Below are positions 1-36,417 of a stretch of DNA of 64,000 bases, in pieces. The stretch's first letter is position 1. Every line of letters starts with the position of its first letter. The stretch spans positions 15,774-79,773 of the forward strand of contig JBATUQ010000052.1 in assembly GCA_049671285.1 (NCBI GenBank), written 5' to 3'. The notes below the pieces were generated by a model that saw nothing but the letters and a program-made list of their open reading frames with translations, had not been told where the DNA came from and searched no databases. This DNA comes from Leeuwenhoekiella sp. Lineage in GTDB: Bacteria > Bacteroidota > Bacteroidia > Flavobacteriales > Flavobacteriaceae. Made by a program: the position numbers and the translations under genes.

Positions 1-597
1 TTAAAGGATGATATAAATGAAGCTAATTTTACGGACAATTTATTCGGAGAGAAAACAAAAATCAATGCACAAGAATTGCTTGAAATAAACTTTAAGAAAT
101 ACAATAAGGTAGAGGCATCAGCAAACGAAATTTTAAACCCCTTCAATTATTATGATGCTGCTGCAAATATTGTTGACCCAAATAACGAAATAAGCCCAGG
201 TAGTTCAGGGCAAAATTACGGGATGCTTGCTCTGCTTTGTATCGCCAAGCTTTCTATTGTTGAAAGAAAGACAAGACATACTTTTGATAGGGTTGTAGAG
301 GGAATAAGAATTTTGCCAATTGATGAAGTTGCAGGATTAGGAGAAAACTTTGATATGCTTTACGACATTGCAAAGCGGTTAGACTATCAGATTTTCACTA
401 TGACAATTACTGCTAATGACTTGACTTTTCAAAACGGCAATCAAATTTACTATGAATTTATCAAAAATGCAGATGAAAAACTTTTTGAGCATAATGAGGG
501 AATTCAAGCTTGCTTCTCTAAAGATAAATTGATAGATGATATTCAAACACATTTTTCAGATTCAACTTTCCATTTGGAAGAAATTAATATCAAATGA
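1..597 (+). CDS. 3' part of an SMC/ABC-type ATPase gene, 5'-truncated by the window edge; candidate defence ATPase (Wadjet JetC/MksF-like or PARIS AriA/OLD-like)
   Basis: Frame 1 is open from nt 1 (no stop before the listed ATG at 76), so the gene starts upstream of the window. The translation has an ABC-signature-like SPGSSGQ motif. About 35 aa later comes a Walker-B/D-loop-like RILPIDEVAGLG, then an H-loop-position QIFTMTIT with no His. A 4-bp ATGA stop/start overlap joins it to the next ORF. Confidence 0.4.
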   Translation, partial: LKDDINEANFTDNLFGEKTKINAQELLEINFKKYNKVEASANEILNPFNYYDAAANIVDPNNEISPGSSGQNYGMLALLCIAKLSIVERKTRHTFDRVVEGIRILPIDEVAGLGENFDMLYDIAKRLDYQIFTMTITANDLTFQNGNQIYYEFIKNADEKLFEHNEGIQACFSKDKLIDDIQTHFSDSTFHLEEINIK

Positions 598-1508
598 TTC
601 CAATTAATACGCCATATAAGGTTCTAATGTATTTGGTAAAAATCAATGAAGATAAATCTTCACCAAAAAAGTATGAAAGTGACGCATTGATTTTGCATTT
701 TATTGAAAGGAAGTATCTAACAACACCAAAAGAAAGTCATAGAAAGTTTTATAAATCAAGTTCTTTTGAAGAACCTTTTACCAATGAAATTTTTCCAACA
801 TTTAGAAAATATGATTCATTCATCAAAAAATATCAAATTGAGAACTTAGAGAATCATTATTCAGTTCAGGAATTTGATACCTTAATCCAAATTGAAAATG
901 AAAGAGTAAAAATTCTTAATGCTGAATATTCTTTTCAAACAATACTTACTCAGCATTTTGGAAGTTCAAAGCACAGGAAAGCAGGTGGAATTTTATCTGA
1001 CGCAATAAAGAAAATATTAAAAATTGACAGCTTCCCTGAAGAGATTAAAGATCGACAATTTCTTTCTGTTCTATATCCAAAAAATGAAACTCGCTATATC
1101 ATACTTTGTGAAAATTTGAATAGATTAAAAATGCCAAGACACGACTTCATTGAGTTTTGGTATGCAGGTGGAAAAAACATAAAACAGCTTCAATTCATTC
1201 CAAAACCTAAGGTTCCAATTTTTTATCTATTTGATTGGGATTATGAAGGATTAAATATTTACATAGAAATTGAGCAAAAATACTTACCGACTATTAAAGC
1301 GTTAATCCCTGATAATTACGAATCATTAATGGAAAAACAGGAAGACGTAAAAGAGCACCACAGTAAATGGAAAAATAATAAATGCTTACTTCATTTATGT
1401 GAGAATGAAAGAGAAATAGCAAAGGTTTTATTTGAAACAGACCACATAATAGAAGAGCAGAAAATTAGGTTAAATGATATAAATCTATTAAAAAACGGCA
1501 TCATTTAG
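594..1508 (+). CDS. Toprim-domain protein; nuclease/topoisomerase-like partner of the upstream ATPase (JetD/MksG-like or OLD/AriB-like)
   Basis: The C-terminal half carries Toprim hallmarks in the right order and spacing: a conserved Glu in RYIILCENLNRL, a Gly-Gly in FWYAGGKN, and DxD-G in IFYLFDWDYEGLNIY. The 4-bp overlap with the upstream ATPase gene implies translational coupling. At 304 aa it is nearer AriB/DUF4435 size than a typical ~400-aa JetD. Confidence 0.4.
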   Translation: MIPINTPYKVLMYLVKINEDKSSPKKYESDALILHFIERKYLTTPKESHRKFYKSSSFEEPFTNEIFPTFRKYDSFIKKYQIENLENHYSVQEFDTLIQIENERVKILNAEYSFQTILTQHFGSSKHRKAGGILSDAIKKILKIDSFPEEIKDRQFLSVLYPKNETRYIILCENLNRLKMPRHDFIEFWYAGGKNIKQLQFIPKPKVPIFYLFDWDYEGLNIYIEIEQKYLPTIKALIPDNYESLMEKQEDVKEHHSKWKNNKCLLHLCENEREIAKVLFETDHIIEEQKIRLNDINLLKNGII

Positions 1509-1588
1509 AGAACATTTATATTAACACGTTTGATGATACATTAGCAATTCACACAAGAAAACGTTTAGTCCAAGTATGACAAAATAAC

Positions 1589-1745
1589 CCGGAAAAGTTT
1601 TCGAACAGCGATCCCAACGAGGTTTCTATTGTGCTGACCAATCAGTATAATTTTCGCGTAAGCGTGATTGCCATTGATGAGATCCCGGTACAGTTTCAGT
1701 AGCGGGATTTTGAGATGCAGATTGTCGTAGAAGCTAAAAAGACAT
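1589..1745 (+). pseudogene. Degenerate partial copy of an internal segment (codons ~70-125) of the DUF58 gene
   Basis: About 157 bp, ~90% identical to 3029-3185 inside the intact DUF58 gene. It translates to PEKFSNSDPNEVSIVLTNQYNFRVSVIAIDEIPVQFQ*, with TAG replacing the AAG Lys codon of the intact copy. It is a direct repeat 1440 bp upstream of its parent and brackets the rhuM gene. Confidence 0.6.
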
Positions 1746-1760
1746 GTAAAGCAAGGTGAA

Positions 1761-2738
1761 ATGCATTCAGAAATAATTATATATCAAACCGAAGACGGGC
1801 AGACCAAAATTCGAACTCGATTAGAAAATGAAACTGTTTGGTTGAATCAAGAACAAATGGCAGAGCTTTTTCAGAGAGATCGAAGTGTGATTACAAAACA
1901 TATCGGCAATATTTTCAAAGAAGGAGAATTGGAAAAAAAAAGCAATGTGCAAAATTTGCACATTGGTGGTTCAGACAAGCCTGTAAAGTTTTACAATCTT
2001 GATGTTATCATATCAGTAGGTTACCGGGTAAAATCGCTAAGAGGCACTCAATTTCGTATTTGGGCAACACAGCGGTTGCGAGAATATATCGTCAAGGGTT
2101 TTGCTATGAATGACGACCTGCTCAAGGAAGCAGGTGGTGGCAATTATTTTGATGAACTGCTAGCTCGCATCAGAGATATACGTTCATCCGAAAAAGTGTT
2201 TTGGCGTAAAGTGCTCGATATTTATGCAACCAGTATTGATTATGACGGTAAAGCCGAAGAATCCATCCCTTTTTTTAAGACGGTACAAAATAAAATGCAC
2301 TGGGCTGCACACGGGCAAGCGGCTGCAGAAACCATTTACAAACGTATTGACGCTAGTAAACCCCATTTGGGCCTAACCAATTTTAAAGGCGAAAAGCCAA
2401 CAAAAAAAGAAACTGAGGTTGCCAAAAACTACCTGAATGAAAAAGAACTGGATGTTCTCAACAGAATGGTTACAGCCTATTTGGAATTAGCAGAACTGCA
2501 AGCGCTGAACAGAAAGCCAATGTATATGAAAGATTGGATAAGCCGTTTAGATGACTTTCTTCAGATGACCGGAAACGACATCCTAACCAATGCAGGAAGC
2601 ATCAGTCATCAAAAAGCTTTGGACAAAGCTCATCAAGAATATGAAAAACATAGGGAAGAAACCAAAAATGAGCTTTCTAAAGCAGAAAAGGATTTCATAA
2701 AGCAAATAGAGTCTACTGCCAAAAAATTAAAGAAATAG
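1761..2738 (+). CDS. rhuM: RhuM-family protein (virulence/defence-island associated, DNA-binding)
   Basis: 325 aa. The N-terminus IIIYQTEDGQTKIRTRLENETVWLNQEQMAELFQRDRSVITKHI and the central YRVKSLRGTQFRIWATQRLREYIVKGF are the conserved core of the RhuM family. Confidence 0.85.
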   Translation: MHSEIIIYQTEDGQTKIRTRLENETVWLNQEQMAELFQRDRSVITKHIGNIFKEGELEKKSNVQNLHIGGSDKPVKFYNLDVIISVGYRVKSLRGTQFRIWATQRLREYIVKGFAMNDDLLKEAGGGNYFDELLARIRDIRSSEKVFWRKVLDIYATSIDYDGKAEESIPFFKTVQNKMHWAAHGQAAAETIYKRIDASKPHLGLTNFKGEKPTKKETEVAKNYLNEKELDVLNRMVTAYLELAELQALNRKPMYMKDWISRLDDFLQMTGNDILTNAGSISHQKALDKAHQEYEKHREETKNELSKAEKDFIKQIESTAKKLKK

Positions 2739-21268: not shown

Positions 21269-22018
21269 GTGATCAGATTTTTCATTTTTGTTAGTTTTCT
21301 AAGCTTGATTGCCTGCGGCGAAAACAAATCAGTCACCCAGAAAATCACAGCTTCCCAGACAACAGTTTCAGATTCCATCCCTGCTGATGCTGAGATTGAA
21401 GCGTTCATAGCTCCGTATAAAAACCGCATTGATCAGGAGATGGACAGCGTGCTGGCCTATGCTCCCGCGACCTATACTAAAAGCAACGGCGAGTACAATA
21501 CCGCCATTGGCAATATGATGGCCGATGCCGTGCTAGAACTTGCCGATACCATTTTTGCTGCCCGTACCGGGAAACACATTGATGCGGTCTTGCTGAACAG
21601 CGGTGGGATTCGCGCCCCAATCAATAAAGGAAACATTACCACCCGAAGCGCTTACCAGTTAATGCCTTTCGAAAACAGTTTGGTCGTCGTTGAACTAGAC
21701 GCCCAAATGATTCAAGCGATGTTTGAATACTTGAGCTGTGGAAAAGCGCATCCAATCTCAGGTATGGAAATCGAACTTGACGACAACGGAAAACTCGCCA
21801 ACAACACCATACACGGTGAACCGCTGGATGATTCCAAAACCTATTTCATAGCCACCAGTGATTATTTACAAAATGGCGGCGACGGTATGGAATTCTTAAC
21901 CGATCCCGTTTCAAAAACTGATCTGGACTATAAAATCAGGAATATCCTGATCGATTATTTCAGCAAATACGACACCATCGCCCCGGTTAGGGATAGTCGG
22001 TTTATAAAACGGGACTAG
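21269..22018 (+). CDS. 5'-nucleotidase C-terminal-domain lipoprotein
   Basis: Lipoprotein signal FLSLIACGENKS. The 5'-nucleotidase C-domain is recognisable from NTAIGNMMADAVLE...LLNSGGIRAPINKGNITTRSAYQLMPFENSLVVVELDAQMI. Confidence 0.75.
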   Translation: MIRFFIFVSFLSLIACGENKSVTQKITASQTTVSDSIPADAEIEAFIAPYKNRIDQEMDSVLAYAPATYTKSNGEYNTAIGNMMADAVLELADTIFAARTGKHIDAVLLNSGGIRAPINKGNITTRSAYQLMPFENSLVVVELDAQMIQAMFEYLSCGKAHPISGMEIELDDNGKLANNTIHGEPLDDSKTYFIATSDYLQNGGDGMEFLTDPVSKTDLDYKIRNILIDYFSKYDTIAPVRDSRFIKRD

Positions 22019-22083
22019 GGCGGTTCTCTTGGTACGCTTCCTCACCTTGTTCGGACGCTACTCGAGAACCTTATCAAAAGGAA

Positions 22084-22203
22084 AACAAAAGGTGTCCGAG
22101 TAGGGTTATTAAAGCAGAGCGAGACCACCCGTACCGAGGAAACCGGAACAAAAAAAGGTGTCCGAGTAGGGTGGTCAAAGCGGAGCGAGACTACCCGTAC
22201 CGA
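22084..22203. repeat. Two tandem ~62-bp direct repeats (~85% identical), intergenic
   Basis: AAAAGGTGTCCGAGTAGGGT(T/G)(A/G)T(T/C)AAAGC(A/G)GAGCGAGAC(C/T)ACCCGTACCGAGGA occurs twice in tandem. A GGTTCTC...GAGAACC inverted repeat (22023-22071) lies just upstream. They sit between the two 5'-nucleotidase-domain genes. Confidence 0.6.
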
Positions 22204-22228
22204 GGACCCGGGAACTAAAACTTACATT

Positions 22229-23137
22229 ATGCATCGCAGAACCTTCGTTAAAAATTCAGTGGCTGCATCCCTGCTAACGGGAATGACAACAAACAGCTAT
22301 GGCGCACTACTTCCCAAAGCAGATAAGCACATCACGATTTTACATACCAATGATGTGCATAGCCACATTGAGCCTTTTGGTCCCGATGAAGGCCGAAATG
22401 CCAACAAAGGTGGAGTTGCCCGCCGGTTGACGCTTATTCAAAAAGTACGTGCCGAAAATCCCAATACGCTCCTGCTCGATGCCGGGGATATTTTTCAGGG
22501 GACGCCCTATTTTAACTTCTATGGTGGCGAACTCGAATTTAAACTGATGTCCAAATTGGGTTATGACGCGGCGACCATTGGCAATCACGATTTTGATAAT
22601 GGCGTGGGCGGTCTTGCCGCTCAGATGCCGCACGCCGGGTTCAAAATGCTTTCGGCCAACTATGACTTTACAAATACCGCGATGGAAGGCCTGACCAAAC
22701 CGTATCAGGTTTTTGTAAAAGATGATGTGAAAATCGGTGTTTTCGGGATTGGGATCGCGCTCGACGGACTGGTCAACAAAACGCAATATCGGGAAACAAA
22801 ATATATGGATCCTATCGAGCGAACTCAAGATATGACCCGTATTTTACGCGAGGAAGAAAATTGCGATCTGGTCATCTGCCTTTCACATTTGGGTTATAAA
22901 TACGACAGTGATAAAATCTCTGATGTTGCCTTAGCGGCGAAAACAAGCGGGATTGACCTCATCATAGGCGGTCATACACATACTTTTTTGTCCCAACCCA
23001 CTGTCACCGATAATAAGCGGGGAAAAAAAGTCTTGATTAACCAAGTAGGCTGGGCCGGAATCAATCTGGGCCGGATTGATTTTTATTTGGATGCAAGCGG
23101 TAAAGTGAGTTCAGAAGAACTGATAATTGAGGTTTAG
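22229..23137 (+). CDS. Metallophosphoesterase (5'-nucleotidase N-terminal/calcineurin-like domain), Tat-like signal
   Basis: MHRRTFVKNSVAASLLTG is a twin-arginine-type signal. ILHTNDVHSHIEPFG, DAGDIFQGT and GNHDFD are the dimetal-phosphoesterase motifs. Confidence 0.8.
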   Translation: MHRRTFVKNSVAASLLTGMTTNSYGALLPKADKHITILHTNDVHSHIEPFGPDEGRNANKGGVARRLTLIQKVRAENPNTLLLDAGDIFQGTPYFNFYGGELEFKLMSKLGYDAATIGNHDFDNGVGGLAAQMPHAGFKMLSANYDFTNTAMEGLTKPYQVFVKDDVKIGVFGIGIALDGLVNKTQYRETKYMDPIERTQDMTRILREEENCDLVICLSHLGYKYDSDKISDVALAAKTSGIDLIIGGHTHTFLSQPTVTDNKRGKKVLINQVGWAGINLGRIDFYLDASGKVSSEELIIEV

Positions 23138-23634
23138 CTCTTCAATTTTTTTTGCCTCCAACCCAATCTTTTTTGAATGCTACTAGGTGAGTTGGTAATT
23201 CTTAATTACATTATTAAAATCTGCATCACCCTAGTATTTGCCTTACAACAAATACTGTAAAATTGACCCTACTTAAATTTCAATTTCCTGCTTTGTATTA
23301 TTTTCTTGGAACGACAATTATCGTAATAATAATGCTCATATAAAGGAATTACCCCAAAACTATTGCGCCCTTACATCGATTTCTATTCAATTTTCACCGA
23401 CTTTTACGCTATTAAACACTGTTATTACTTTGTATTTCGTCGTTATAATTTATCTTTTAATGTATCATTATTGAATTTAATTTTATAATTGTAGGTATTT
23501 ACTTAAAATATTATTTACTTTTACATTTAATACTGAGAATATATTATACAAAGTCAACCTTTTTAGCTCCGCTTGAAGGTGGTGATTGTATTTAACAGTA
23601 AAGTAGTTATGTGATTAATTTCAATATCAGACCT

Positions 23635-25647
23635 ATGAAAAATATATTATTCCTGACTCTTTGTCTATCCTTCTGCGTGATGCAAGCCCAGCTTTATGTG
23701 TCAGCAGATACAGAAATCTATATTTCTTCGGACGATAATCTGTACTCCAACGAAAATATTATCAATGAAGGAAAAATTCAATTAAACGATGCTTCCAGAC
23801 TTATTTTTGACGGAAATTTGACCAATAACAACCTGATCGCCTATACCAACGGAACCGACAAAGGTATACTCCAAATAGGATCTGGCGAGGTATCCAGTGT
23901 CAGTGCTCAAAATATAAAGTTCCACCCTACAGTCACGGAAGAGGCTCCGTTTATCATTCTAAATAAGAATTCTCAAGAGGCAAGCGTTACACGGGGTCAC
24001 TTGCGATTAACGGAACAATTAAAATCAATAAGTGGTACATTAAATGCCCAAAGTTCTATTAGCGAAACCGGAGAATCTTCGGGATTGACATTTGCCAGCC
24101 CCGATATCACCACCACGTCAATAGTTGAAGAATCTGATGGCGGAAATGTAGTTAATGTAATTGTAGAGCGTTTTATACCCAATTCCAGTAGGGCGTGGAG
24201 ATATCTTTCATCTCCAGTAAGTACCAACGAGTCCATCAAGGAAAACTTACAAGAAGGTGCCAACATCACTTCACCAGGCCAAGTAGCAAATCCATTTCCG
24301 GGGTATGGCACCCATATCACAGGGTCTAAAACGGGAACTCTTGGTTTTGATGCAACATTAACCGGCAACTCTTCCATGTACTTTTGGGATGGAGGCGCTC
24401 AACAATGGAACAGTACTCCCAATACAGATACCAGACAACTCGCGGCAGGAGAAGCCTACGCCATACTTGTGCGGGGTGGCCGGGAGCTTGATTTGACTGC
24501 TGGAAACGATCAATTGGGTTCATCTACCATTTTAAGAACTCTGGGAAATCTTCACATTGGTGCCTACAACACCCCCAATTTGGCACCCACGACAGGTGAT
24601 TTTTCCCTTGTAGGCAACCCGTATCAGGCACAGGTTGACCTGGAAGCATTACTTAATAGTGGCAATAACGGCGGAGTAAGTAACAATTTTGTCTATTATT
24701 ATGATCCCAATTTAGGAGTACAGGGCGCGTATGCCACTATGGATTTTGGCAATGGGATTACCCCAAGTGTGTCTGAAGCCAGCAAATACCTACAACCCAA
24801 CCAAGCCTTTGTTGTACAAACTACCACGTCCAATCCCACTTTACTTTTTGACGAGAATTTTAAAAGGCCAACTGATCAAACAAAGATCAACGGCGTTTTC
24901 AGTCCCGCTCAAAAAGGCAAATCGGACCTGGATAACGATAAGTTGGATACAGATTTTAAAATAGACGTAAATTTATTTGATACAGATGCCAACGTGACCA
25001 AGGATGGGGTCACGTTAAGATTTAATGCTGCTTATAACGACGAGATACTTCCAGAGGAAGACGCTCCAAAATTTTGGAATCGGGATGAATCGCTAGCTGT
25101 CCTCAACCAAGGTCAGTATTTATCCATTGATAAGCGCCATATCGTCAAGGAAATGGCGAATGCGCAATTGTATATTTCAAATTACAGGAATTCAAATTAT
25201 TCCCTGCAAATTTCCATAAAAAATGCTCCTGCCGGAAGTAAGGTCGTTCTGATCGATAATTACCTAAATACACAAACACTATTGGAAGAAAACGCCAATC
25301 GCCACGATTTTAGCATTGACAAAAATGTAGCTCAGTCCATTGATCAAAGTCGATTTAAATTGGGGCTTTATAGTAATTCGCTTAGTGTTCCATCCACTGC
25401 CGAGCTATCGTCTATAGGTTTCTATCCCAATCCCGCTGTTGATAAGCTGAATATCGATTTGAATACTACGGATGACGTTTTAAAGGAACTACAAATTTTT
25501 AGCTCAGACGGTAAATTGGTCAAACAAATTGCTGTTGATAACCTTACCGAAAAGCAGATAGAAGTAGGCGATTTACCACGCGGTATCTATCTTGTAGAAA
25601 TGCAAACGGTCAAAGGAAAGGCTGTAAAGAAATTAATTCTTCATTAA
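23635..25647 (+). CDS. Secreted surface protein with a T9SS (Por) C-terminal sorting domain; function unknown
   Basis: Signal peptide MKNILFLTLCLSFCVMQAQ. The C-terminal ~80 aa, IGFYPNPAVDKLNIDLNTTDDVLKELQIFSSDGKLVKQ...GIYLVEMQTVKGKAVKKLILH, is a type-A T9SS CTD. It is preceded by a 470-bp very AT-rich non-coding region. Confidence 0.75.
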   Translation: MKNILFLTLCLSFCVMQAQLYVSADTEIYISSDDNLYSNENIINEGKIQLNDASRLIFDGNLTNNNLIAYTNGTDKGILQIGSGEVSSVSAQNIKFHPTVTEEAPFIILNKNSQEASVTRGHLRLTEQLKSISGTLNAQSSISETGESSGLTFASPDITTTSIVEESDGGNVVNVIVERFIPNSSRAWRYLSSPVSTNESIKENLQEGANITSPGQVANPFPGYGTHITGSKTGTLGFDATLTGNSSMYFWDGGAQQWNSTPNTDTRQLAAGEAYAILVRGGRELDLTAGNDQLGSSTILRTLGNLHIGAYNTPNLAPTTGDFSLVGNPYQAQVDLEALLNSGNNGGVSNNFVYYYDPNLGVQGAYATMDFGNGITPSVSEASKYLQPNQAFVVQTTTSNPTLLFDENFKRPTDQTKINGVFSPAQKGKSDLDNDKLDTDFKIDVNLFDTDANVTKDGVTLRFNAAYNDEILPEEDAPKFWNRDESLAVLNQGQYLSIDKRHIVKEMANAQLYISNYRNSNYSLQISIKNAPAGSKVVLIDNYLNTQTLLEENANRHDFSIDKNVAQSIDQSRFKLGLYSNSLSVPSTAELSSIGFYPNPAVDKLNIDLNTTDDVLKELQIFSSDGKLVKQIAVDNLTEKQIEVGDLPRGIYLVEMQTVKGKAVKKLILH

Positions 25648-25734
25648 TTTACTTGTTGTTTTTTAAATGAAACGGGCAGTATTTGATCTATATATAAACA
25701 CATCCTGCTCGATCAGTGAGAATATCTCAAATGT

Positions 25735-25938
25735 TGCCTAGCGGCGAAAACAAAGGCAATTTTCCTCATCACTGTTGGTCATAGAAAACCTTACCATTAC
25801 GACGCTAAGCGATAATCAGGACGAAATAAAGCCCCAATTAACCAAGTAGGCTGAGCCGGAATTAATCTGGGCAGTATTGATTATTATCTGGATGCAGGCG
25901 GAGTAGTAAGTTCGGAAGAACTCATAATTGAGGTGTAA
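25735..25938 (+). pseudogene. Decayed duplicate of the last ~210 bp of the metallophosphoesterase gene (22928-23137)
   Basis: About 80-85% nt identity to 22928-23137, including ...ACCAAGTAGGCTG(A/G)GCCGGAAT(T/C)AATCTGGGC...GAAGAACT(C/G)ATAATTGAGGT. The reading frame is broken by stops and indels. Confidence 0.6.
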
Positions 25939-25980: not shown

Positions 25981-26361
25981 TCAAAATGGATTTAAAAGCT
26001 GTAAATCCGTAATACTTTGGAAATCCTTAATGTTTCGAGTCATCAAAGGAATGTCAAAACTCAATGCAGTAGCAGCAATAATCGCGTCAGGCAGTTTGGT
26101 TGAATATAATTTACGAATGTCTGCAGTTTGCAATTTAATTGCTTTGTTGAATTCAATTACTTCACATTTTTCAAGAAATTCGTTCAGCATTCTGATATCC
26201 TCTTCTTCATCAGATTTCCAAGAAAGAAGCTCTATTTCTGAAATTACAGAGATGCAGGGCTGCCACTTGTCGTCGGTTAAAGTTAACTTGGGAATGTCAT
26301 TGAGGATAATATTCCTTGAAGGAAGTAAATGACAATATTTGTGTCCCAAAGATACTTCACT
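25981..26361 (-). pseudogene. vapC: PIN-domain (VapC-like) toxin gene disrupted by a single-base frameshift
   Basis: The canonical PIN N-terminus VKYLWDTNIVIYFLQG starts at a GTG overlapping the antitoxin stop (GTGA). It runs only 25 codons before a stop. The rest of the PIN domain (NIILNDIPKLT...WQPCISVISEIELL...LPDAIIAATALSFDIPLMTRNIKDF) continues in another frame. The join implies one missing A in GGAAATATT, now GGAATATT, at about 26310-26316. The listed ORF 25981-26394 has an artificial N-terminal extension. Confidence 0.65.
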
Positions 26362-26563
26362 CCCAACCCGCTCGAAGTTCATCCAATTGCGCATCTACTT
26401 GATCCATAGATTGTTTCTTCATAGAACCGGCGTAATCTTGCCAATTGCTCTTTTGATTTTGGCTTTCTGTGGTTCTTTTCAGACGGATCAAGTTTAATGA
26501 TTCCAAATTCTCTAGAATTTTCAGAACTCCGTTATTCAGTATTTCTATCGTAATGCTGTTCAT
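26357..26563 (-). CDS. Putative type II antitoxin partner of the PIN toxin
   Basis: 68-aa ORF (MNSITIEILNNGVLKILENLESLNL...) immediately upstream of the PIN toxin, with a 4-bp stop/start overlap. Probable start at the internal ATG. Family not recognisable. Confidence 0.45.
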   Translation of the reverse strand: MNSITIEILNNGVLKILENLESLNLIRLKRTTESQNQKSNWQDYAGSMKKQSMDQVDAQLDELRAGWE

Positions 26564-26646
26564 TATGAAAGCTTTAAGATTACATTCAAAAATAGACACA
26601 TTTCAGTTGAATCTAAAATTTAACAAAATATGCTCCTATAATTAAA

Positions 26647-28650
<2,004 letters not shown>

Positions 28651-31515: not shown

Positions 31516-34500
31516 TTAAGAGCCCTTCCCCAACCCCAACTTCAATACCTCCTTAATCCCTTCCAGATTCTCCGAAAATTGCATCATCTGGCTAAGCATT
31601 TGGGCCATTTCATTTTTGTCGCCAAAGCCTTTCAACTTGTTGTTTTTTACAAAAGTTTCCTTGATGGTATTCCAGCGCTGGGTTTCTTCGGGGTTGAGCG
31701 TGCCGGTGAGTTCCTTGTATTTTAAAATGTTGGCTTCCGCAGAGGCGGTCAGGGTTTGTGACTCGCTTTCGTAATGCGAAAGCAACAGCGTATCGAGTTC
31801 GCGGTCGTTCATGATCGGGACGACCTTGGCGACCAGTTTGTTCATATCGCGGTAGGAGCCCTGCAGTTTAAACGACGGTTCGGTGCGGTATTCGTCCTCC
31901 ATCGCCGCACTTTTGATGTAGGCGGCATTCACCTTCAGCACCGTATTCCTGATCTTGACCACCTTTTGCAGCACCGCAACATATTCCGCAATCTCCTGAT
32001 TGCTGTGGTTGCCGCTCAGTTGGGCTTCCTGATTGTTGTTTTCCACCCGGTCCAGCAGCGTATACACATCGTCAAAATGGCTGCTGCTCAATTGCTGCAG
32101 GATTGGGTTTGCGGTCAGCGAGTTTTCGATCAGGCTCAGGTTAAACAGATGCGCGGTATCGCCTATGATGTCTCCCAGGTTGTAAATATCTGCCCGGTTC
32201 GCCAACATATCTGGGATGCGGAACTTCTCCCCGCTCTCTGTATATGGGTTCCCGGCCATTATCACGCAGAATTTCTTACTGCGCAGGTCATAGGTTTTGG
32301 GTTTGCCGTTATACACGCCTTCTATTTTTCGGGTTCCGTCAGAAAGTGAAATAAATTTCTGCAAAAACTCCGGGTTGCAATGCTGAATGTCATCCAGATA
32401 AAGCATCACGTTGTTGCCCATCTCAAAAGCAAGGTTCAATTTCTTGAGTTCTTCCCGCGCGGCAGAATTGGTCGCACTCGCAGGATCTACTGAAGTTACC
32501 TCGTGTCCTATCGCCGGGCCATTGATCTTCATAAAAATTAGGCCAAGCCGATTCGCGATATATTCCATCAAGGTAGTTTTCCCGTAGCCTGGCGGCGAAA
32601 TCAACAACAGCAAACCCATTCGGTCGGTGCGTTTGTTGTCGCCCACGGTGCCCAACTGTTTCGCCAGATTGTCACCAAAAAGCGGAAAATATACCTGATC
32701 GATCAGTTTATTCCTAACGAAAGAAGTCAGCACCCGCGGCTTGAATTCTTCCAGTTTGAGTTGTTCTTTTAAATCTTCGGTTACCTGATGTTTGGCCTCG
32801 CGAAAAGCTTGAAAAGCGGGTACATCTTCGGCTACAAAAGCAGACAAGGTCGCCGTAAAATCGTGATAATTGAATTCGAAATTTCCTTCTGTGATTGTCG
32901 AATGGCTTCCGCTCAAACCACTTATAGTGGCACTTGGCGAAGTCGCTTCTACCTTAGAAACCGACGCATCCGAAAATAGCAACGCACAGACCACCTCATC
33001 GATATATCGTGATTTCTGCGCTGTCGAAAGTTGAGTTCCATTCTGGTAAACCGTATTGACGAAGGCAGAAACCCACTGCCGCGTCAACTTTATCATTTCC
33101 GAGAAGTCGGGAATCTTCTCAATACTTTTACGAAATTTTAAATCTGCTTGTTGCTCCTTCAGGTGTTTCTCAAAAGCTTCTTTGATGGATATCGCCAAAT
33201 GACTTTGCGCAAATTGATCGTCGTTTTGCAATTCCTCAAAAAGATAGTCAGCGATATTTTCGCCTAGAGCGGAATCAAAAAGTGTGGTCGCTTTAGAAAA
33301 ATTTTCGATCTGTCGGGTTAATTCCTTGATTAAAAAATCATATTCCCGCGTCTGCGGAAAATACTGCAACACCTCCCCGGAAGCTTTAATGCTCTGATCG
33401 AGTTGTGCTTGTTTCGCGGCTTCGAGACTGTTCCAAAAATACTGCGCAAACGCCCTGATCTCCGGCCGAAACCGCAACAGTCCCAACGAATGGTGCTTGT
33501 TGACCAACGTCGCCAAGATTTCTGCGGCATCGCGATCGTGCACGCCTTTTACATACCCTTCGGCATAATCGCTACTGCTTTCTTGCTGCACGATTTTAAG
33601 CAGTTCTTCTCCCGTTTTATCATACAGCTTTTCGGTACCAATCTTTTGAAATAATTTATACGCTAAATAGGCCGACCTATACACCTGATCGTTTTCAGAA
33701 ACCAGTTCCTGATCCCAGAGGTTTCGCGAGTTAAGCAAAATGGGATTGTCCAGTTTTTGGTAGAAATCCGTTCCGGTAAGGTGGTAATTAAGTTCGCCGT
33801 TTTTTAAAACGATCGTGAGATCGAGTTGCTGTTTATTGACCCCAAATTTGTGCTTGCCGAGTTTGATGACATTTTCGCCATCTTCATACAGATCCTGTTT
33901 GTCCTTGAGTTTGCGCAGCGCATCTTCGCGGGCGGTTTTGAGTCCGGTTTCAATTTCTTCGGCTTTACCGCTATCATCGAGATCTTTCAGCTGCTGCACG
34001 ATGTCGCGCACCTTGTTGATCATCAGGTCTGCGGCAAAATATCCGTTAATTTCTGTGGCAGTCTTAAAACTTTCGACCTTCTTCCGCACGCCTTTTAAAA
34101 TACGTTCGGAAGCATTTTGCAAAGCCATTGCACGCTTGTTGCGCTTTTCGACCAAGGAGTTTTTCCGGGCATCAAAGGCATTGTACACCTCTTCCCGCTT
34201 GTCGATAATCTCCGAAATGAATTCTTCGAAATCAGCAAATTTCCCTTCCAACTCTTCCAGCTGAATGGTGATTTTATTCTGAAACTCGTCGCATTTTTCG
34301 GGTGTATCTGCGATGTCCAGATAGTTGATGATGCTCTGATCGATCAACTTTAACTGCGCGGCAAAATCAGCTTGGGCTTCGGCGCTTCCCAAGGATTTCC
34401 GCTTATTGCGCAAAGCGGCTTTTAGCTGGTTTAGCGTGGCAAAAATCAGGGAAATATTATCGATGATTTTGGTTGAATGCGCCGTATCCTCAATCTCTAA

Positions 34501-36417
34501 GTTGGAAACGATATCGATCAACAATTCGAGGTCTGCCGCGATCTGATTGACTTCTTCTTCCAGTTTTTTGGCCTCGATTACTTTTTCTATTCCATCCAAA
34601 GCCTTTTGCTTTTCAGCGACTTTAGCGTGGTACGGTTGCAACGCTTTTTCGTCCAATAAAAACTGAACACAACGCTTGGAGATTTTCTGGGATTGTTCTG
34701 CAATATCGCTTTCAAGTTCCTCAGTGAATTTTAGATCGACATAACGGATTTCGCGTAAGCTGATCACCTCGCCACGCAAACTGCGCAACTGAGTCAACAC
34801 CGCAACAAACTCATCAATACTTCGGAAAGAGGTGCTTTTGATTTTACTAAAAAGTGCTTCCGCTTTTTTCCGGATTTCATCCGTTTGCTTTTTGGCATTT
34901 CGGCGCAGCTGCACCACTTTTTGGAATTCATCAATCGCAGCATTTGCAGCCTTATTGATTTCACCAAGCGGCTCGTTTAACTGTTGCGTTTCCGCCTCTG
35001 GCAACCAATAATAAGCGTCGAGAATATCCTTGGACGATTTGGCAATGTCGCTGTAAAGTCCGTCGTAACTGTCCTTTTTATTGAGCAAGGTAACCAGGGC
35101 ATTGACCTCTGCCATCGCCTTGACAATATCCTTGTTTCCTATTTTATAAAGCAGGGTGTCCTCGTGCTGCGACGGCATAAAATCCCCCTTGATAAAAGGC
35201 GTCTGCCAGATCTGAACGGTGTGGTGCTTGGTCTGCTCCTCTTCGGTGCGGAAATAACAAAGTTCACCATTCTGTAGCACTGTAAAACCGTTACAGATGA
35301 TGGGTGTTTTAATTTCCTGCGAAATCACATTGTAGGACATCAAATTGTACAGGCCTTCTTTGGAAGAATAAAAAATGTACAAAAAATCCTCACCGTTAGG
35401 AGAAGCAATGCGCCCCTGAAACTTTACGTCTGGAATCGAATTATCAAATACATTGTACTCGCCCGTTTGCAAATAATAACCCGTCGGAAAAATAATCCCC
35501 TGATCCTCGGGAAGCAAAACGCAGGCATCTTTTATACTCGCGATTTTCTGAACTTCCTTGAGTTTGTGGTTGTAAACAAAATAGCGGGACGGCTCCTGAA
35601 AAGGCTTGATTTCTAAAGCGATCAGATTGCCAAGATCGGCAAAACGGTACTGCCCGTCATCGAGCGTCTGGTCGTAGTGTTCCACCGTCTCTGAGAAAAT
35701 TCCTTTACCATCATCGGTGTTGTCCTCGATTTTAATGGTGAGGTCACCGCCTACCGCTTCCACAAAAACCTTGTCTGCAATCGATACGTGCGGATGTGCT
35801 CCATAACGCTGGTTATCGCGACCCGCTTCCAACCACTTAAACTCATGCTGCGCCGGAAACCGGAACTCGTGATCGCTTCGGTTGTCCACATAATCCAAGC
35901 GGTTTTCCTTGATCAGCCATTTAAAGGTTTTGATGTCGGTGACGCTTTCGCTCAGCTGAAAAATCATATGCAGATAGTTGCCAATGACGGCGAACTTTGC
36001 AAAAATGGTGTTCCGGTAGTATTTGTAAAGGTTGGTAAAATCGGTTTTAAAGGTGTCGTCATTTAGCAACCCAAGATCAAGCGGTTCGAATCGATTGTCT
36101 TTAAATTCATAAACGCTAAAAACATCGGAAAGTGTGATTTCCGTACGCAGTCCAAAATGCACATTGTACCCGAACAGGCAAGTATCTCCCAGCGACACAA
36201 TATCGCGGGCGATGCAATTGTTTTCGGTGTTGATTCGGTCATTGGCGATCAGTTTCGTTTCCAGCGACCCAAAGACTTCCTGGCGGTCAATATTCAACTG
36301 CTGTAGCCGTTCCTGAAGATCGACCTTCTGTTTCTGCAGCCGGTTTTGAATGATCTCGTAGGTGCCGGAGTCCAGTGTATTGTTATTACTATTTTTATTG
36401 GTATTGTTTTCTGACAT
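31516..36417 (-). CDS. Giant (1633 aa) protein with a C-terminal MoxR/AAA_5-like AAA+ ATPase domain and a ~1250-aa uncharacterised N-terminal region (beta-rich segment then long helical/coiled-coil region)
   Basis: The only P-loop is LLLLISPPGYGKTTLMEY near residue 1290. Walker B region VMLYLDDIQHCNPEFLQKFISL has D-D rather than D-E. Sensor/Arg region KKFCVIMAGNPYTESGEKFRIPDMLANRADIYNL matches the MoxR/AAA_5 pattern (xATxNPxExxGxxxLPxAxLDRF). Residues ~450-1150 are Lys/Glu/Leu-rich helical. It is the last gene of the pspA-flotillin operon. Confidence 0.85.
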   Translation of the reverse strand: MSENNTNKNSNNNTLDSGTYEIIQNRLQKQKVDLQERLQQLNIDRQEVFGSLETKLIANDRINTENNCIARDIVSLGDTCLFGYNVHFGLRTEITLSDVFSVYEFKDNRFEPLDLGLLNDDTFKTDFTNLYKYYRNTIFAKFAVIGNYLHMIFQLSESVTDIKTFKWLIKENRLDYVDNRSDHEFRFPAQHEFKWLEAGRDNQRYGAHPHVSIADKVFVEAVGGDLTIKIEDNTDDGKGIFSETVEHYDQTLDDGQYRFADLGNLIALEIKPFQEPSRYFVYNHKLKEVQKIASIKDACVLLPEDQGIIFPTGYYLQTGEYNVFDNSIPDVKFQGRIASPNGEDFLYIFYSSKEGLYNLMSYNVISQEIKTPIICNGFTVLQNGELCYFRTEEEQTKHHTVQIWQTPFIKGDFMPSQHEDTLLYKIGNKDIVKAMAEVNALVTLLNKKDSYDGLYSDIAKSSKDILDAYYWLPEAETQQLNEPLGEINKAANAAIDEFQKVVQLRRNAKKQTDEIRKKAEALFSKIKSTSFRSIDEFVAVLTQLRSLRGEVISLREIRYVDLKFTEELESDIAEQSQKISKRCVQFLLDEKALQPYHAKVAEKQKALDGIEKVIEAKKLEEEVNQIAADLELLIDIVSNLEIEDTAHSTKIIDNISLIFATLNQLKAALRNKRKSLGSAEAQADFAAQLKLIDQSIINYLDIADTPEKCDEFQNKITIQLEELEGKFADFEEFISEIIDKREEVYNAFDARKNSLVEKRNKRAMALQNASERILKGVRKKVESFKTATEINGYFAADLMINKVRDIVQQLKDLDDSGKAEEIETGLKTAREDALRKLKDKQDLYEDGENVIKLGKHKFGVNKQQLDLTIVLKNGELNYHLTGTDFYQKLDNPILLNSRNLWDQELVSENDQVYRSAYLAYKLFQKIGTEKLYDKTGEELLKIVQQESSSDYAEGYVKGVHDRDAAEILATLVNKHHSLGLLRFRPEIRAFAQYFWNSLEAAKQAQLDQSIKASGEVLQYFPQTREYDFLIKELTRQIENFSKATTLFDSALGENIADYLFEELQNDDQFAQSHLAISIKEAFEKHLKEQQADLKFRKSIEKIPDFSEMIKLTRQWVSAFVNTVYQNGTQLSTAQKSRYIDEVVCALLFSDASVSKVEATSPSATISGLSGSHSTITEGNFEFNYHDFTATLSAFVAEDVPAFQAFREAKHQVTEDLKEQLKLEEFKPRVLTSFVRNKLIDQVYFPLFGDNLAKQLGTVGDNKRTDRMGLLLLISPPGYGKTTLMEYIANRLGLIFMKINGPAIGHEVTSVDPASATNSAAREELKKLNLAFEMGNNVMLYLDDIQHCNPEFLQKFISLSDGTRKIEGVYNGKPKTYDLRSKKFCVIMAGNPYTESGEKFRIPDMLANRADIYNLGDIIGDTAHLFNLSLIENSLTANPILQQLSSSHFDDVYTLLDRVENNNQEAQLSGNHSNQEIAEYVAVLQKVVKIRNTVLKVNAAYIKSAAMEDEYRTEPSFKLQGSYRDMNKLVAKVVPIMNDRELDTLLLSHYESESQTLTASAEANILKYKELTGTLNPEETQRWNTIKETFVKNNKLKGFGDKNEMAQMLSQMMQFSENLEGIKEVLKLGLGKGS

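What the first reader, a model, noticed from the sequence alone, without database searches (positions are those of the whole stretch)
22928..25938. T9SS-sorted surface protein gene looks like a cargo insertion at the 3' end of the metallophosphoesterase gene (decayed 3'-end duplicate downstream)
Seen in sequence: the last ~210 bp of the metallophosphoesterase gene (22928-23137) recur at 25735-25938 with ~80-85% identity and a broken reading frame. Between the intact gene end and the relic lie a 470-bp extremely AT-rich segment and the 678-aa T9SS-CTD protein gene.

Established: elements that integrate into the 3' end of a gene commonly bring a replacement 3' end and leave the displaced original as a decaying fragment.

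Inference: a ~2.6-kb insertion delivered a new surface adhesin-like protein. No integrase is present, so the insertion is either old or was mobilised in trans.
Basis: partly seen in the sequence, partly recalled or inferred. Interest (0 to 1): 0.55.

Follow-up and report, generated by a model that had tools for sequence, protein, structure and literature searches.

The report
Decayed gene-tail scar beside inserted gene
A 225-bp dead copy of the end of a phosphatase gene lies just after a surface-protein gene, marking an old, ordinary recombination event in a stretch of chromosome where related bacteria all carry different extra genes.

Summary
The last 232 bp of the metallophosphoesterase (MPE) gene (22906-23137) recur at 25714-25938. 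They match at 75% of alignment columns (83% in the 3' 115 nt), far above chance, and the homology stops at both stop codons. The second copy is a pseudogene fragment with stops, indels and a destroyed catalytic motif. Between the copies lie a 497-bp AT-rich leader and a 670-aa T9SS-sorted all-beta protein gene.

In 61 other Flavobacteriaceae loci that retain ligA, MPE and ligA converge across a gap of -4 to 3328 bp with lineage-specific fillers. None holds this T9SS gene, vapBC or a relic. So this is an integrase-free variable hotspot, and the T9SS gene is accessory.

However, the relic is sister to the resident tail, not foreign. dN/dS of 0.42 and dS of about 0.45 fit near-identical copies at the event followed by long neutral decay. 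I found no integrase, att core, gene remnant or compositional anomaly. The structure also cannot show whether the T9SS block or the vapBC block arrived second.

The best reading is an old homology-anchored plus illegitimate, or Campbell-type, recombination scar. This is an ordinary finding of low interest.

The parts
21269..22018 (+). 5'-nucleotidase C-terminal-domain gene (nucC), the conserved upstream partner of MPE
   Evidence: Pfam PF02872, E = 3.1e-25. It is syntenic in all 80 related loci.
22229..23137 (+). Intact metallophosphoesterase (MPE) gene, 302 aa, with all catalytic motifs present
   Evidence: Pfam PF00149, E = 4.5e-19. The translation shows the DVHSH, GDIFQG, GNHDF and GGHTH motifs. 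NCBI accession MGB5944171.1.
22906..23137 (+). Repeat copy A: the functional 3' end of MPE (77 codons plus stop), which includes the GGHTH motif
23138..23634 (.). AT-rich non-coding leader (GC 0.278) upstream of the T9SS gene
   Evidence: Composition. There is no Pfam remnant in any frame and no Rfam hit. Homologous T9SS genes elsewhere also have long AT-rich leaders (GC 0.27-0.34).
23635..25647 (+). T9SS type A cargo protein gene, 670 aa (the longest ORF starts at GTG 23611, 678 aa). It has a signal peptide, an all-beta multi-domain passenger and a C-terminal sorting domain.
   Evidence: PF18962, E = 2.4e-15. AF2 model with pLDDT 81. The CTD matches solved T9SS substrate CTDs at TM 0.75-0.82. 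NCBI accession MGB5944172.1.
25648..25713 (.). 66-bp spacer between the T9SS stop codon and the relic. Its 3' edge is the non-homologous junction.
   Evidence: There is no homology to the sequence upstream of 22906.
25714..25938 (+). Repeat copy B: decayed relic of the MPE 3' end (pseudogene fragment)
   Evidence: Matches at 75% of alignment columns (79% of aligned pairs) with stops and indels. Its own changes hit residues invariant in 119 orthologues. It is sister to copy A.
25981..26394 (-). VapC (PIN) toxin gene, apparently frameshifted. The family N-terminus is encoded at 26366-26304 in another frame.
   Evidence: PF01850 covers residues 49-126 only. BLASTP and tblastn against homologues show the frame change.
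26357..26599 (-). Putative VapB-type antitoxin ORF (68-80 aa)
   Evidence: Assigned by its position upstream of and overlapping vapC. It has no Pfam hit.
26647..28638 (-). NAD-dependent DNA ligase (ligA), the conserved convergent flank of the hotspot
   Evidence: Pfam PF01653, E = 1.2e-90, plus further ligase domains. It is syntenic in 61 of the 81 other loci.

Best explanation
The interval between the convergent, conserved MPE and ligA genes is an integrase-free hotspot where different Flavobacteriaceae lineages carry different accessory genes. In this lineage two accessory blocks lie in tandem: the AT-rich leader plus T9SS cargo gene, and a vapBC module. The 225-bp MPE-tail relic between them is the scar of the recombination event that joined them.

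The proposed event is as follows. DNA from the same lineage or a very close relative carried its own copy of the MPE 3' end. It entered by homologous pairing in a conserved flank, with a non-homologous join at the other end. That is homology-facilitated illegitimate recombination, or equivalently Campbell-type single-crossover integration of a circularised 2.8-kb fragment. One MPE tail stayed joined to the gene and remained under selection. The other was left without its 5' part and has decayed neutrally for a long time, roughly 0.15-0.2 substitutions per site.

Shown here: the repeat and its sharp limits, the decay of the relic, the sister relationship of the two copies, the hotspot, the accessory status of the T9SS gene, and the absence of mobile-element hallmarks.

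Inferred: the recombination mechanism, the closeness of the donor, and the age. The order in which the two blocks arrived is not determinable from this sequence.
For: - The repeat is highly significant, and homology ends exactly at both stop codons and at 22906/25714. That is where two hotspot haplotypes would stop being alike.
- Among the 61 other loci that retain ligA, the MPE-ligA gap ranges from -4 to 3328 bp. Fillers differ by lineage: M15 peptidase, DoxX, YhhN, a HigBA-like TA module and unknown proteins. Seven loci are essentially empty.
- None of those loci has the T9SS gene, vapBC or an MPE relic.
- The relic and the resident tail are sister sequences. They share Q31, D36 and E72, which are absent from 119 orthologues. 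Nucleotide alignment score is 107 against 20 or less for the tails of 81 other species.
- Nearly all amino-acid differences are relic-specific and hit invariant residues.
- dN = 0.19, dS = 0.45 and dN/dS = 0.42, with a CI that includes the 0.5 expected for copies identical at the event followed by neutral decay of one copy.
- No integrase or transposase lies in the 20.9 kb around the site.
- T9SS gene composition is not an outlier.
- Integrase-free hotspots that spread by homologous recombination in flanking core genes are described in PMC2617782. Homology-facilitated illegitimate recombination (HFIR) that leaves displaced 3' ends is discussed in PMC5361080.
Against: - No close relative exists in any collection searched. 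The next MPE homologue is 73% identical or less, and the metagenome 23-mer scan found nothing. Neither parental haplotype has therefore been observed.
- The illegitimate junction shows only a weak possible microhomology (CGA(T)CAGTGA).
- DNA uptake or competence in this organism is unknown.
- dN/dS has a wide CI (0.22-0.84), so moderate divergence before the event is not excluded.
- A site-specific element that has lost its integrase would leave the same architecture.
Confidence: 0.5

Rival explanations
1. This is the degenerate remnant of a site-specific integrative element of the e14 or phage 21 type that integrates into icd. In that model a tyrosine or serine recombinase integrated an element into the MPE 3' end, and the element's attP carried a replacement tail. 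The integrase and most of the element were later deleted, leaving only the T9SS gene and its leader.
For: - The architecture is identical to icd-e14-icdC: an intact gene end, the insert, then a displaced C-terminal pseudogene (PMC13626634).
- The repeat includes the stop codon and restores a functional gene, including the GGHTH motif.
- The age of the event (dS about 0.45) leaves time for the integrase to be lost.
Against: - No integrase, excisionase or remnant in the insert or within +/-10 kb.
- The longest identical stretch between the copies is 17 nt, and no core can be defined.
- The insert is only 2.6 kb with a single cargo gene.
- T9SS homologues elsewhere are not linked to MPE tails or integrases.
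- No similar relic at this site in 81 other loci.
- The replacement tail is sister to the resident sequence rather than foreign.
- No phage or plasmid similarity.
Confidence: 0.2
2. The mechanism is the same as in the best explanation, but with the opposite polarity. The T9SS block was already downstream of MPE. A fragment [MPE tail-vapBC-ligA] from a close relative then entered, anchored by homology in ligA, with its left end joined illegitimately 66 bp after the T9SS stop. The relic would then be donor DNA that was never functional here, and vapBC rather than the T9SS gene would be the newcomer.
For: - The structure is symmetrical, and the sequence does not polarise the event.
- TA modules are typical hotspot cargo. 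L005 carries a different TA pair in the same gap.
- The nearest VapC homologues are 62% identical or less and are scattered across Bacteroidota, which suggests horizontal mobility.
Against: There is nothing specific against it. vapC itself is frameshifted and looks old. Chimerism in ligA was not tested.
Confidence: 0.2
3. The structure arose by local events without any donor. A short tandem duplication of the MPE tail, or a decayed tandem MPE paralogue, was followed by an independent insertion of the T9SS gene exactly between the copies.
For: The copies are sister sequences, and dN/dS is compatible with identity at the time of duplication.
Against: - It requires two independent events at the same nucleotide, with the insertion falling exactly at the stop codon.
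- No tandem MPE paralogue or relic in any of 81 other loci.
- No MPE paralogue elsewhere in the window.
Confidence: 0.07
4. The structure is an assembly artefact of a metagenome-assembled genome, in which two strain haplotypes were joined.
For: The source is a MAG.
Against: - The relic is a heavily decayed pseudogene, matching at 75% of alignment columns with stops and indels. It is not a strain variant.
- An independent Logan contig is 100% identical across the whole structure.
Confidence: 0.03

Closest known systems
e14 and phage 21 integration into icd of E. coli K-12, leaving the icdC C-terminal pseudogene (Hill, Gray and Brody 1989, as described in PMC13626634)
   Same: The gene stays intact because the inserted DNA supplies a substitute 3' end. 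The displaced original tail persists as a short C-terminal pseudogene at the far side of the insert. The homology runs to the stop codon.
   Different: e14 is a 15-kb prophage with its own integrase and excises by site-specific recombination. Here the insert is 2.6 kb, with one cargo gene, no recombinase and no definable core. The relic is far more decayed: it matches at 75% of alignment columns and carries stops and indels, whereas the icdC stretch aligned in PMC13626634 differs from icd by two substitutions (D417E, D429E).
Homology-facilitated illegitimate recombination, and C-terminal displacement in Rhs, CDI and T6SS effector loci (PMC5361080; de Vries and Wackernagel 2002, Prudhomme et al. 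2002 and Jackson et al. 2009, as cited there)
   Same: A conserved upstream segment acts as the anchor and the other end joins illegitimately. The previous 3' end is pushed downstream and left as an orphan fragment. No integrase is needed.
   Different: In those systems the displaced 3' ends encode alternative toxin and immunity modules, are often retained functionally, and accumulate in arrays. Here the gene is a housekeeping phosphoesterase, the two tails are near-equivalent, there is a single displacement, and the relic is non-functional.
Integrase-free integration hotspots between conserved core genes (Touchon et al. 2009, PMC2617782)
   Same: Different lineages carry different accessory genes between the same two core genes. 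Most such hotspots lack integrases and tRNA genes. Spread is proposed to occur by homologous recombination in the flanking genes.
   Different: That work was in E. coli at the species level. Here the hotspot is seen across genera of Flavobacteriaceae, and it contains a physical scar (the duplicated flank end) that such hotspots usually lack.

Membership tests
Site-specific integrative element with 3'-end replacement (e14/icd type) | A recombinase (integrase) gene inside or next to the insert | tested here: not met
   The insert has no Pfam hit other than Por_Secre_tail. Gene calls with Pfam across 20.9 kb show no integrase or transposase. The AT-rich segment has no remnant at E <= 1.
Site-specific integrative element with 3'-end replacement (e14/icd type) | attL and attR direct repeats sharing an identical core | tested here: inconclusive
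   Direct repeats of 232 and 225 nt are present, matching at 75% of alignment columns (79% of aligned pairs). The longest identical run is 17 nt, and decay could have erased a core.
Site-specific integrative element with 3'-end replacement (e14/icd type) | The target gene is reconstituted by the insert-proximal copy | tested here: met
   MPE is intact with all metallophosphoesterase motifs, including GGHTH inside the repeat.
Site-specific integrative element with 3'-end replacement (e14/icd type) | The same element recurs at the same target in other genomes, or its cargo travels with the att-bearing end | tested here: not met
   None of the 81 other loci has a relic or the T9SS gene at MPE. 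T9SS homologues lie in unrelated contexts with no MPE tail.
Homology-anchored or illegitimate (HFIR or Campbell-type) insertion in an integrase-free hotspot | A variable interval between conserved flanking genes, with empty sites in relatives | tested here: met
   The gap is -4 to 3328 bp with diverse fillers. Seven loci have a gap of 90 bp or less, including L082 with 0 bp.
Homology-anchored or illegitimate (HFIR or Campbell-type) insertion in an integrase-free hotspot | The duplicated segment is flank-gene sequence from a closely related donor | tested here: met
   The two copies are sister sequences. dN/dS of 0.42 is compatible with near-identity at the event. The resident tail is not unusually divergent.
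Homology-anchored or illegitimate (HFIR or Campbell-type) insertion in an integrase-free hotspot | A non-homologous junction with short microhomology | tested here: inconclusive
   Homology is lost sharply at 25713/25714. Only CGA(T)CAGTGA is shared at the edge, and decay blurs the junction.
Homology-anchored or illegitimate (HFIR or Campbell-type) insertion in an integrase-free hotspot | Parental haplotypes are observable, and the host has a DNA-uptake route | not testable with these tools
   No relative closer than 73% MPE identity exists in 5.8 billion proteins, in the genome collection or in the metagenome scans.
T9SS type A cargo protein | C-terminal sorting domain (Por_Secre_tail, type A CTD) | tested here: met
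   PF18962, E = 2.4e-15, residues 605-676. The modelled CTD superposes on the RemZ, NucA and RemA CTDs in solved translocon complexes, with TM 0.75-0.82 and rmsd 2.2-2.6.
T9SS type A cargo protein | N-terminal Sec signal peptide | tested here: inconclusive
   MKNILFLTLCLSFCVMQAQ looks like a signal peptide and is modelled as a helix at residues 2-13. No dedicated signal-peptide predictor was run.
T9SS type A cargo protein | T9SS machinery present in the same genome | not tested
   Only 64 kb of the genome is available, and T9SS machinery genes were not searched for.
VapBC type II toxin-antitoxin module | An intact PIN-domain toxin with the N-terminal catalytic Asp in frame | tested here: not met
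   PIN matches residues 49-126 only. The family N-terminus (GVKYLWDTN) is encoded in a different frame at 26366-26304.

The most novel reading that the evidence does not exclude
The 2.8-kb unit (MPE tail + AT-rich leader + T9SS gene) could be a natural insertion-duplication cassette. In this reading, T9SS cargo genes in Flavobacteriaceae would be gained as small circularised fragments that integrate by single-crossover homology with the 3' end of a conserved gene, without any recombinase of their own. The relic would be a reusable landing pad or excision site. A further possibility is that the relic is retained because its transcript, read through from the T9SS gene, acts on MPE mRNA.
Probability: 0.08. 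Interest if true: 0.45.

Novelty: new member of a known kind. Interest (0 to 1): 0.2.

Why it matters
The locus is a clean and datable example of how accessory genes accumulate between conserved convergent genes without any mobile-element machinery. Here the accessory genes are a secreted or surface T9SS protein and a toxin-antitoxin pair. The duplicated flank end is a physical scar of the joining event, which most integration hotspots lack. It could help calibrate how long non-functional DNA survives in Flavobacteriaceae. It does not reveal a new mechanism or a new kind of element. Its practical value is for annotation: a pseudogene fragment at 25714-25938, and a frameshifted vapC.

Tried and rejected
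- Exact-protein look-ups for the 302-aa MPE and for P0121 returned nothing on record.
- The only other copy of the locus (L081, Logan) is 100% identical to the window, so it gives no polymorphism information.
- A search for close relatives failed everywhere. The genome-contig scan reached 71% at best, the search of 5.8 billion proteins reached 73% at best, and the metagenome scan for a 23-mer shared by both repeat copies found 0 hits.
- The codon-position excess at third positions (15%, 17% and 32%) looked at first like evidence that the copies diverged as functional orthologues before the event. I rejected that reading, because continued purifying selection on only the intact copy predicts the same pattern. 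The dN/dS test is compatible with no divergence before the event.
- A first nucleotide comparison using identity over aligned pairs gave inflated values for distant orthologues because of gaps. I redid it with matches per column and alignment score.
- The negative head/tail identity correlation across the top 119 hits was dismissed as selection bias, because the hits were chosen within a narrow total-score band. The genus-level comparison shows no chimerism but has low power.
- There is no conserved leader between the window's AT-rich segment and the upstream regions of T9SS homologues. One 35-nt AT-rich match (E = 0.002 in a tiny database) was judged unreliable.
- Nothing useful came from the sigma-70 promoter and terminator scan, the Bacteroidetes -7 motif scan, Rfam, or the plasmid and phage searches.
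- The gap-filling genes of relatives have no remnants anywhere in the window.


Full report
**1. What is in the sequence**

The neighbourhood reads as follows:
- dapA (-) and DUF6913 (-)
- a 5'-nucleotidase C-terminal-domain gene, nucC (+, 21269-22018)
- a 210-bp spacer
- a metallophosphoesterase gene, MPE (+, 22229-23137, PF00149)
- an AT-rich non-coding stretch
- a T9SS-CTD protein gene (+, ORF 23611-25647)
- a short non-coding stretch
- a PIN/VapC gene (-, 25981-26394) and a small upstream ORF (-, 26357-26599)
- ligA (-, 26647-28638)

NCBI annotates the same three proteins consecutively as metallophosphatase, T9SS type A sorting domain protein and VapC toxin, from a Leeuwenhoekiella sp. MAG (MGB5944171-3).

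**2.

The 3' end of MPE (22906-23137) recurs at 25714-25938. Identity is 83% ungapped over the last 115 nt, 79% over aligned pairs and 75% over all columns. The local alignment score is 114.5 against 10.6 +/- 1.7 for shuffles.

The limits are sharp. Homology is undetectable in the 100 nt upstream of either copy and in the 80 nt downstream of either stop codon. The repeat therefore runs from 77 codons before the stop up to and including the stop.

The second copy is dead. All three frames carry stops and there are at least five indels. Projected onto the gene's codons, W50 is TGA and the GGHTH catalytic motif reads TVGHR.

No other MPE-like sequence exists in the 64-kb window. A Logan contig assembled independently is 100% identical over 20.9 kb spanning the structure, which argues against misassembly.

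**3. The site is a hotspot and the T9SS gene is accessory**

A scan of one genome per species returned 80 loci, none more than 71% identical in MPE. A search of 5.8 billion proteins found only the organism itself at 100%, then 73% or less.

Across these loci, plus one Logan contig, the order dapA-DUF6913-nucC-MPE-> <-ligA is conserved. The distance from the MPE stop to the ligA stop ranges from -4 to 3328 bp in the 61 other loci that retain ligA. It is 3509 bp in the window's own locus. Seven loci are essentially empty: L008, L010, L014, L030, L038, L051 and L082. L082 is among the relatives most similar in MPE, and there the two stop codons abut.

The fillers differ by lineage. They include M15 dipeptidase, DoxX, YhhN, a HigBA-like TA pair and several unknown 230-250-aa proteins. 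None has a trace in the window.

No locus carries a homologue of the T9SS gene or of vapC at this site. None carries an MPE-tail relic, so the relic is a one-off.

The T9SS protein's nearest homologues are 52% identical or less and Psychroflexus-like. They lie in unrelated neighbourhoods with no MPE sequence nearby.

**4. Where the relic came from**

It is much closer to the resident gene.
- At the nucleotide level the alignment score is 107 (75% of columns) against the resident tail. It is 20 or less (58% or less) against the tails of 81 other species.
- At the amino-acid level identity is 69% against 49% or less.
- The two copies share states found in none of 119 orthologues (Q31, D36, E72), plus several rare ones.
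- Where the copies differ, the resident copy nearly always has the family-wide residue. The relic carries replacements at invariant positions: D7N, D18F, I21T, G22V, T25R, R57S, F60Y and W50stop. Those changes could only accumulate after inactivation.

Differences by codon position are 15%, 17% and 32%. Nei-Gojobori estimates are dN = 0.19, dS = 0.45 and dN/dS = 0.42, with a bootstrap 95% interval of 0.22-0.84.

If the copies were identical at the event, with one then evolving neutrally and the other under strong constraint, dN/dS should be about 0.5. Substantial prior divergence as functional orthologues would push it well below that. The data fit near-identity at the event followed by long decay, about 0.15-0.2 substitutions per site on the relic. 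The interval is wide, however.

The resident tail is not unusually divergent relative to the rest of the gene. Its tail/head identity ratio is 0.894, against 0.871 +/- 0.033 for orthologues. The nearest neighbours of head and tail do not clearly differ, although power is low.

So the 'replacement end' was not supplied by a distant donor.

**5. Signs of a mobile element**

I found none:
- no integrase or transposase in the insert or in the surrounding 20.9 kb
- no Pfam remnant in any stop-free stretch of the AT-rich segment at E <= 1
- no meaningful inverted repeats
- no identical core longer than 17 nt
- no Rfam family
- no similarity to plasmids or phages

The T9SS gene has GC 0.414 and GC3 0.387. 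That is about 1 SD below the window's 44 long ORFs, which average 0.437 +/- 0.034 and 0.461 +/- 0.065. The AT-rich leader (GC 0.278) is not anomalous for this gene family either. Homologues in other genomes also have 340-960-bp leaders with GC 0.27-0.34.

**6. The cargo**

The likely start is ATG 23635, giving 670 aa with MKNILFLTLCLSFCVMQAQ as a signal-peptide-like N-terminus. An AlphaFold model built on 27 homologues has pLDDT 81 and pTM 0.73, and is almost entirely beta.

The last ~75 residues superpose on the T9SS substrate CTDs seen in solved translocon complexes (8gl8_D, 8glk_D, 8gl6_D; TM 0.75-0.82). The passenger's weak matches are Ig-like sandwiches, an S-layer protein and a biofilm-associated protein domain. 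There is no enzyme fold. A secreted or surface, possibly adhesive, protein is a reasonable but untested description.

**7. Mechanism**

The architecture is gene, tail A, insert, tail B, downstream DNA. That is what any integration through the gene's 3' end leaves behind.

Two classes of mechanism give it. The first is site-specific integration of an element carrying a substitute tail. The classic case is e14 in icd, which leaves the icdC pseudogene (PMC13626634). The second is homology-driven integration. That could be a fragment anchored by homology in a conserved flank with an illegitimate join at its other end (HFIR), or a Campbell-type single crossover of a circularised fragment. HFIR has been invoked for displaced 3' ends in T6SS and Rhs loci (PMC5361080). 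It is also consistent with integrase-free hotspots that spread by recombination in flanking core genes (PMC2617782).

I favour the second class (0.5, plus 0.2 for its reverse-polarity variant) over the first (0.2), for five reasons:
- The site is a general hotspot without integrases.
- The two tails are sister sequences.
- Homology ends exactly where two hotspot haplotypes would diverge, at the stop codon.
- The cargo family shows no association with any element.
- No relic recurs in other genomes.

The structure cannot say which block came second. A fragment [MPE ... T9SS] anchored in MPE and a fragment [MPE tail-vapBC-ligA] anchored in ligA give the same product. The claim that the T9SS gene is 'the' insertion is therefore not established.

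A purely local origin (tail duplication plus a separate insertion) needs two coincident events and gets 0.07. Misassembly gets 0.03.

**8. Verdict**

This is a new instance of a known kind of recombination scar. Interest is low, at 0.2.

Noticed in passing
window 22019-22228: The nucC-MPE spacer is 210 bp here, against about 10 bp in 80 related loci. It consists of two tandem 66-nt repeats (22084-22149 and 22150-22215, 86% identical) plus an upstream segment (about 22040-22062) that pairs with the first repeat. The predicted RNA fold is -74 kcal/mol with z = -3.6. There is no Rfam hit, no other copy in the window, and no hit for a 29-base pattern in JGI metagenomes. It may be a small MITE- or REP-like insertion, or a regulatory structure, splitting a normally tightly coupled gene pair.
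   Followed up: partly
window 25981-26394 (minus strand), especially 26304-26366: vapC looks frameshifted. The family N-terminus (GVKYLWDTN..., which carries the first catalytic Asp of the PIN domain) is encoded in frame -3 at 26366-26304. The rest, from family residue ~35, is in frame -2. The first 43 aa of the annotated 137-aa ORF are unrelated to the family. Two database homologues (P0273, P0283) have similarly shifted N-termini, so this may be a recurrent way of inactivating the toxin, or an annotation pattern worth examining.
   Followed up: partly
window 31516-36417 (minus strand): A 1633-aa protein combines DUF3686 ('ATPase involved in DNA repair', E = 2.6e-180), DUF7902 and a C-terminal AAA domain. 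It is a giant ATPase of unknown role, about 3 kb beyond ligA.
   Followed up: no
window 594-2738: A 304-aa ORF with very low GC (0.284, GC3 0.234) and no Pfam hit lies next to a RhuM-family 'virulence protein' gene (1761-2738, E = 1e-106). This may be the edge of a foreign island at the start of the window.
   Followed up: no
L089 1116-10515 (JGI metagenome contig): A 42%-identical homologue of the T9SS protein sits inside a cluster of PTL_trimer (PF26696) proteins and a 1658-aa CLIPPER-domain protein. This suggests that in some genomes the family belongs to a larger surface-structure locus.
   Followed up: no
L047 11753-13166 and L054 12194-13611: In two loci (Winogradskyella sp. and Algibacter sp.) tblastn splits ligA into pieces. 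An extra BRCT/HhH-like segment, 47% identical to residues 482-663, lies between them. This may be a partial duplication or an insertion in the 3' part of ligA at the same hotspot.
   Followed up: no
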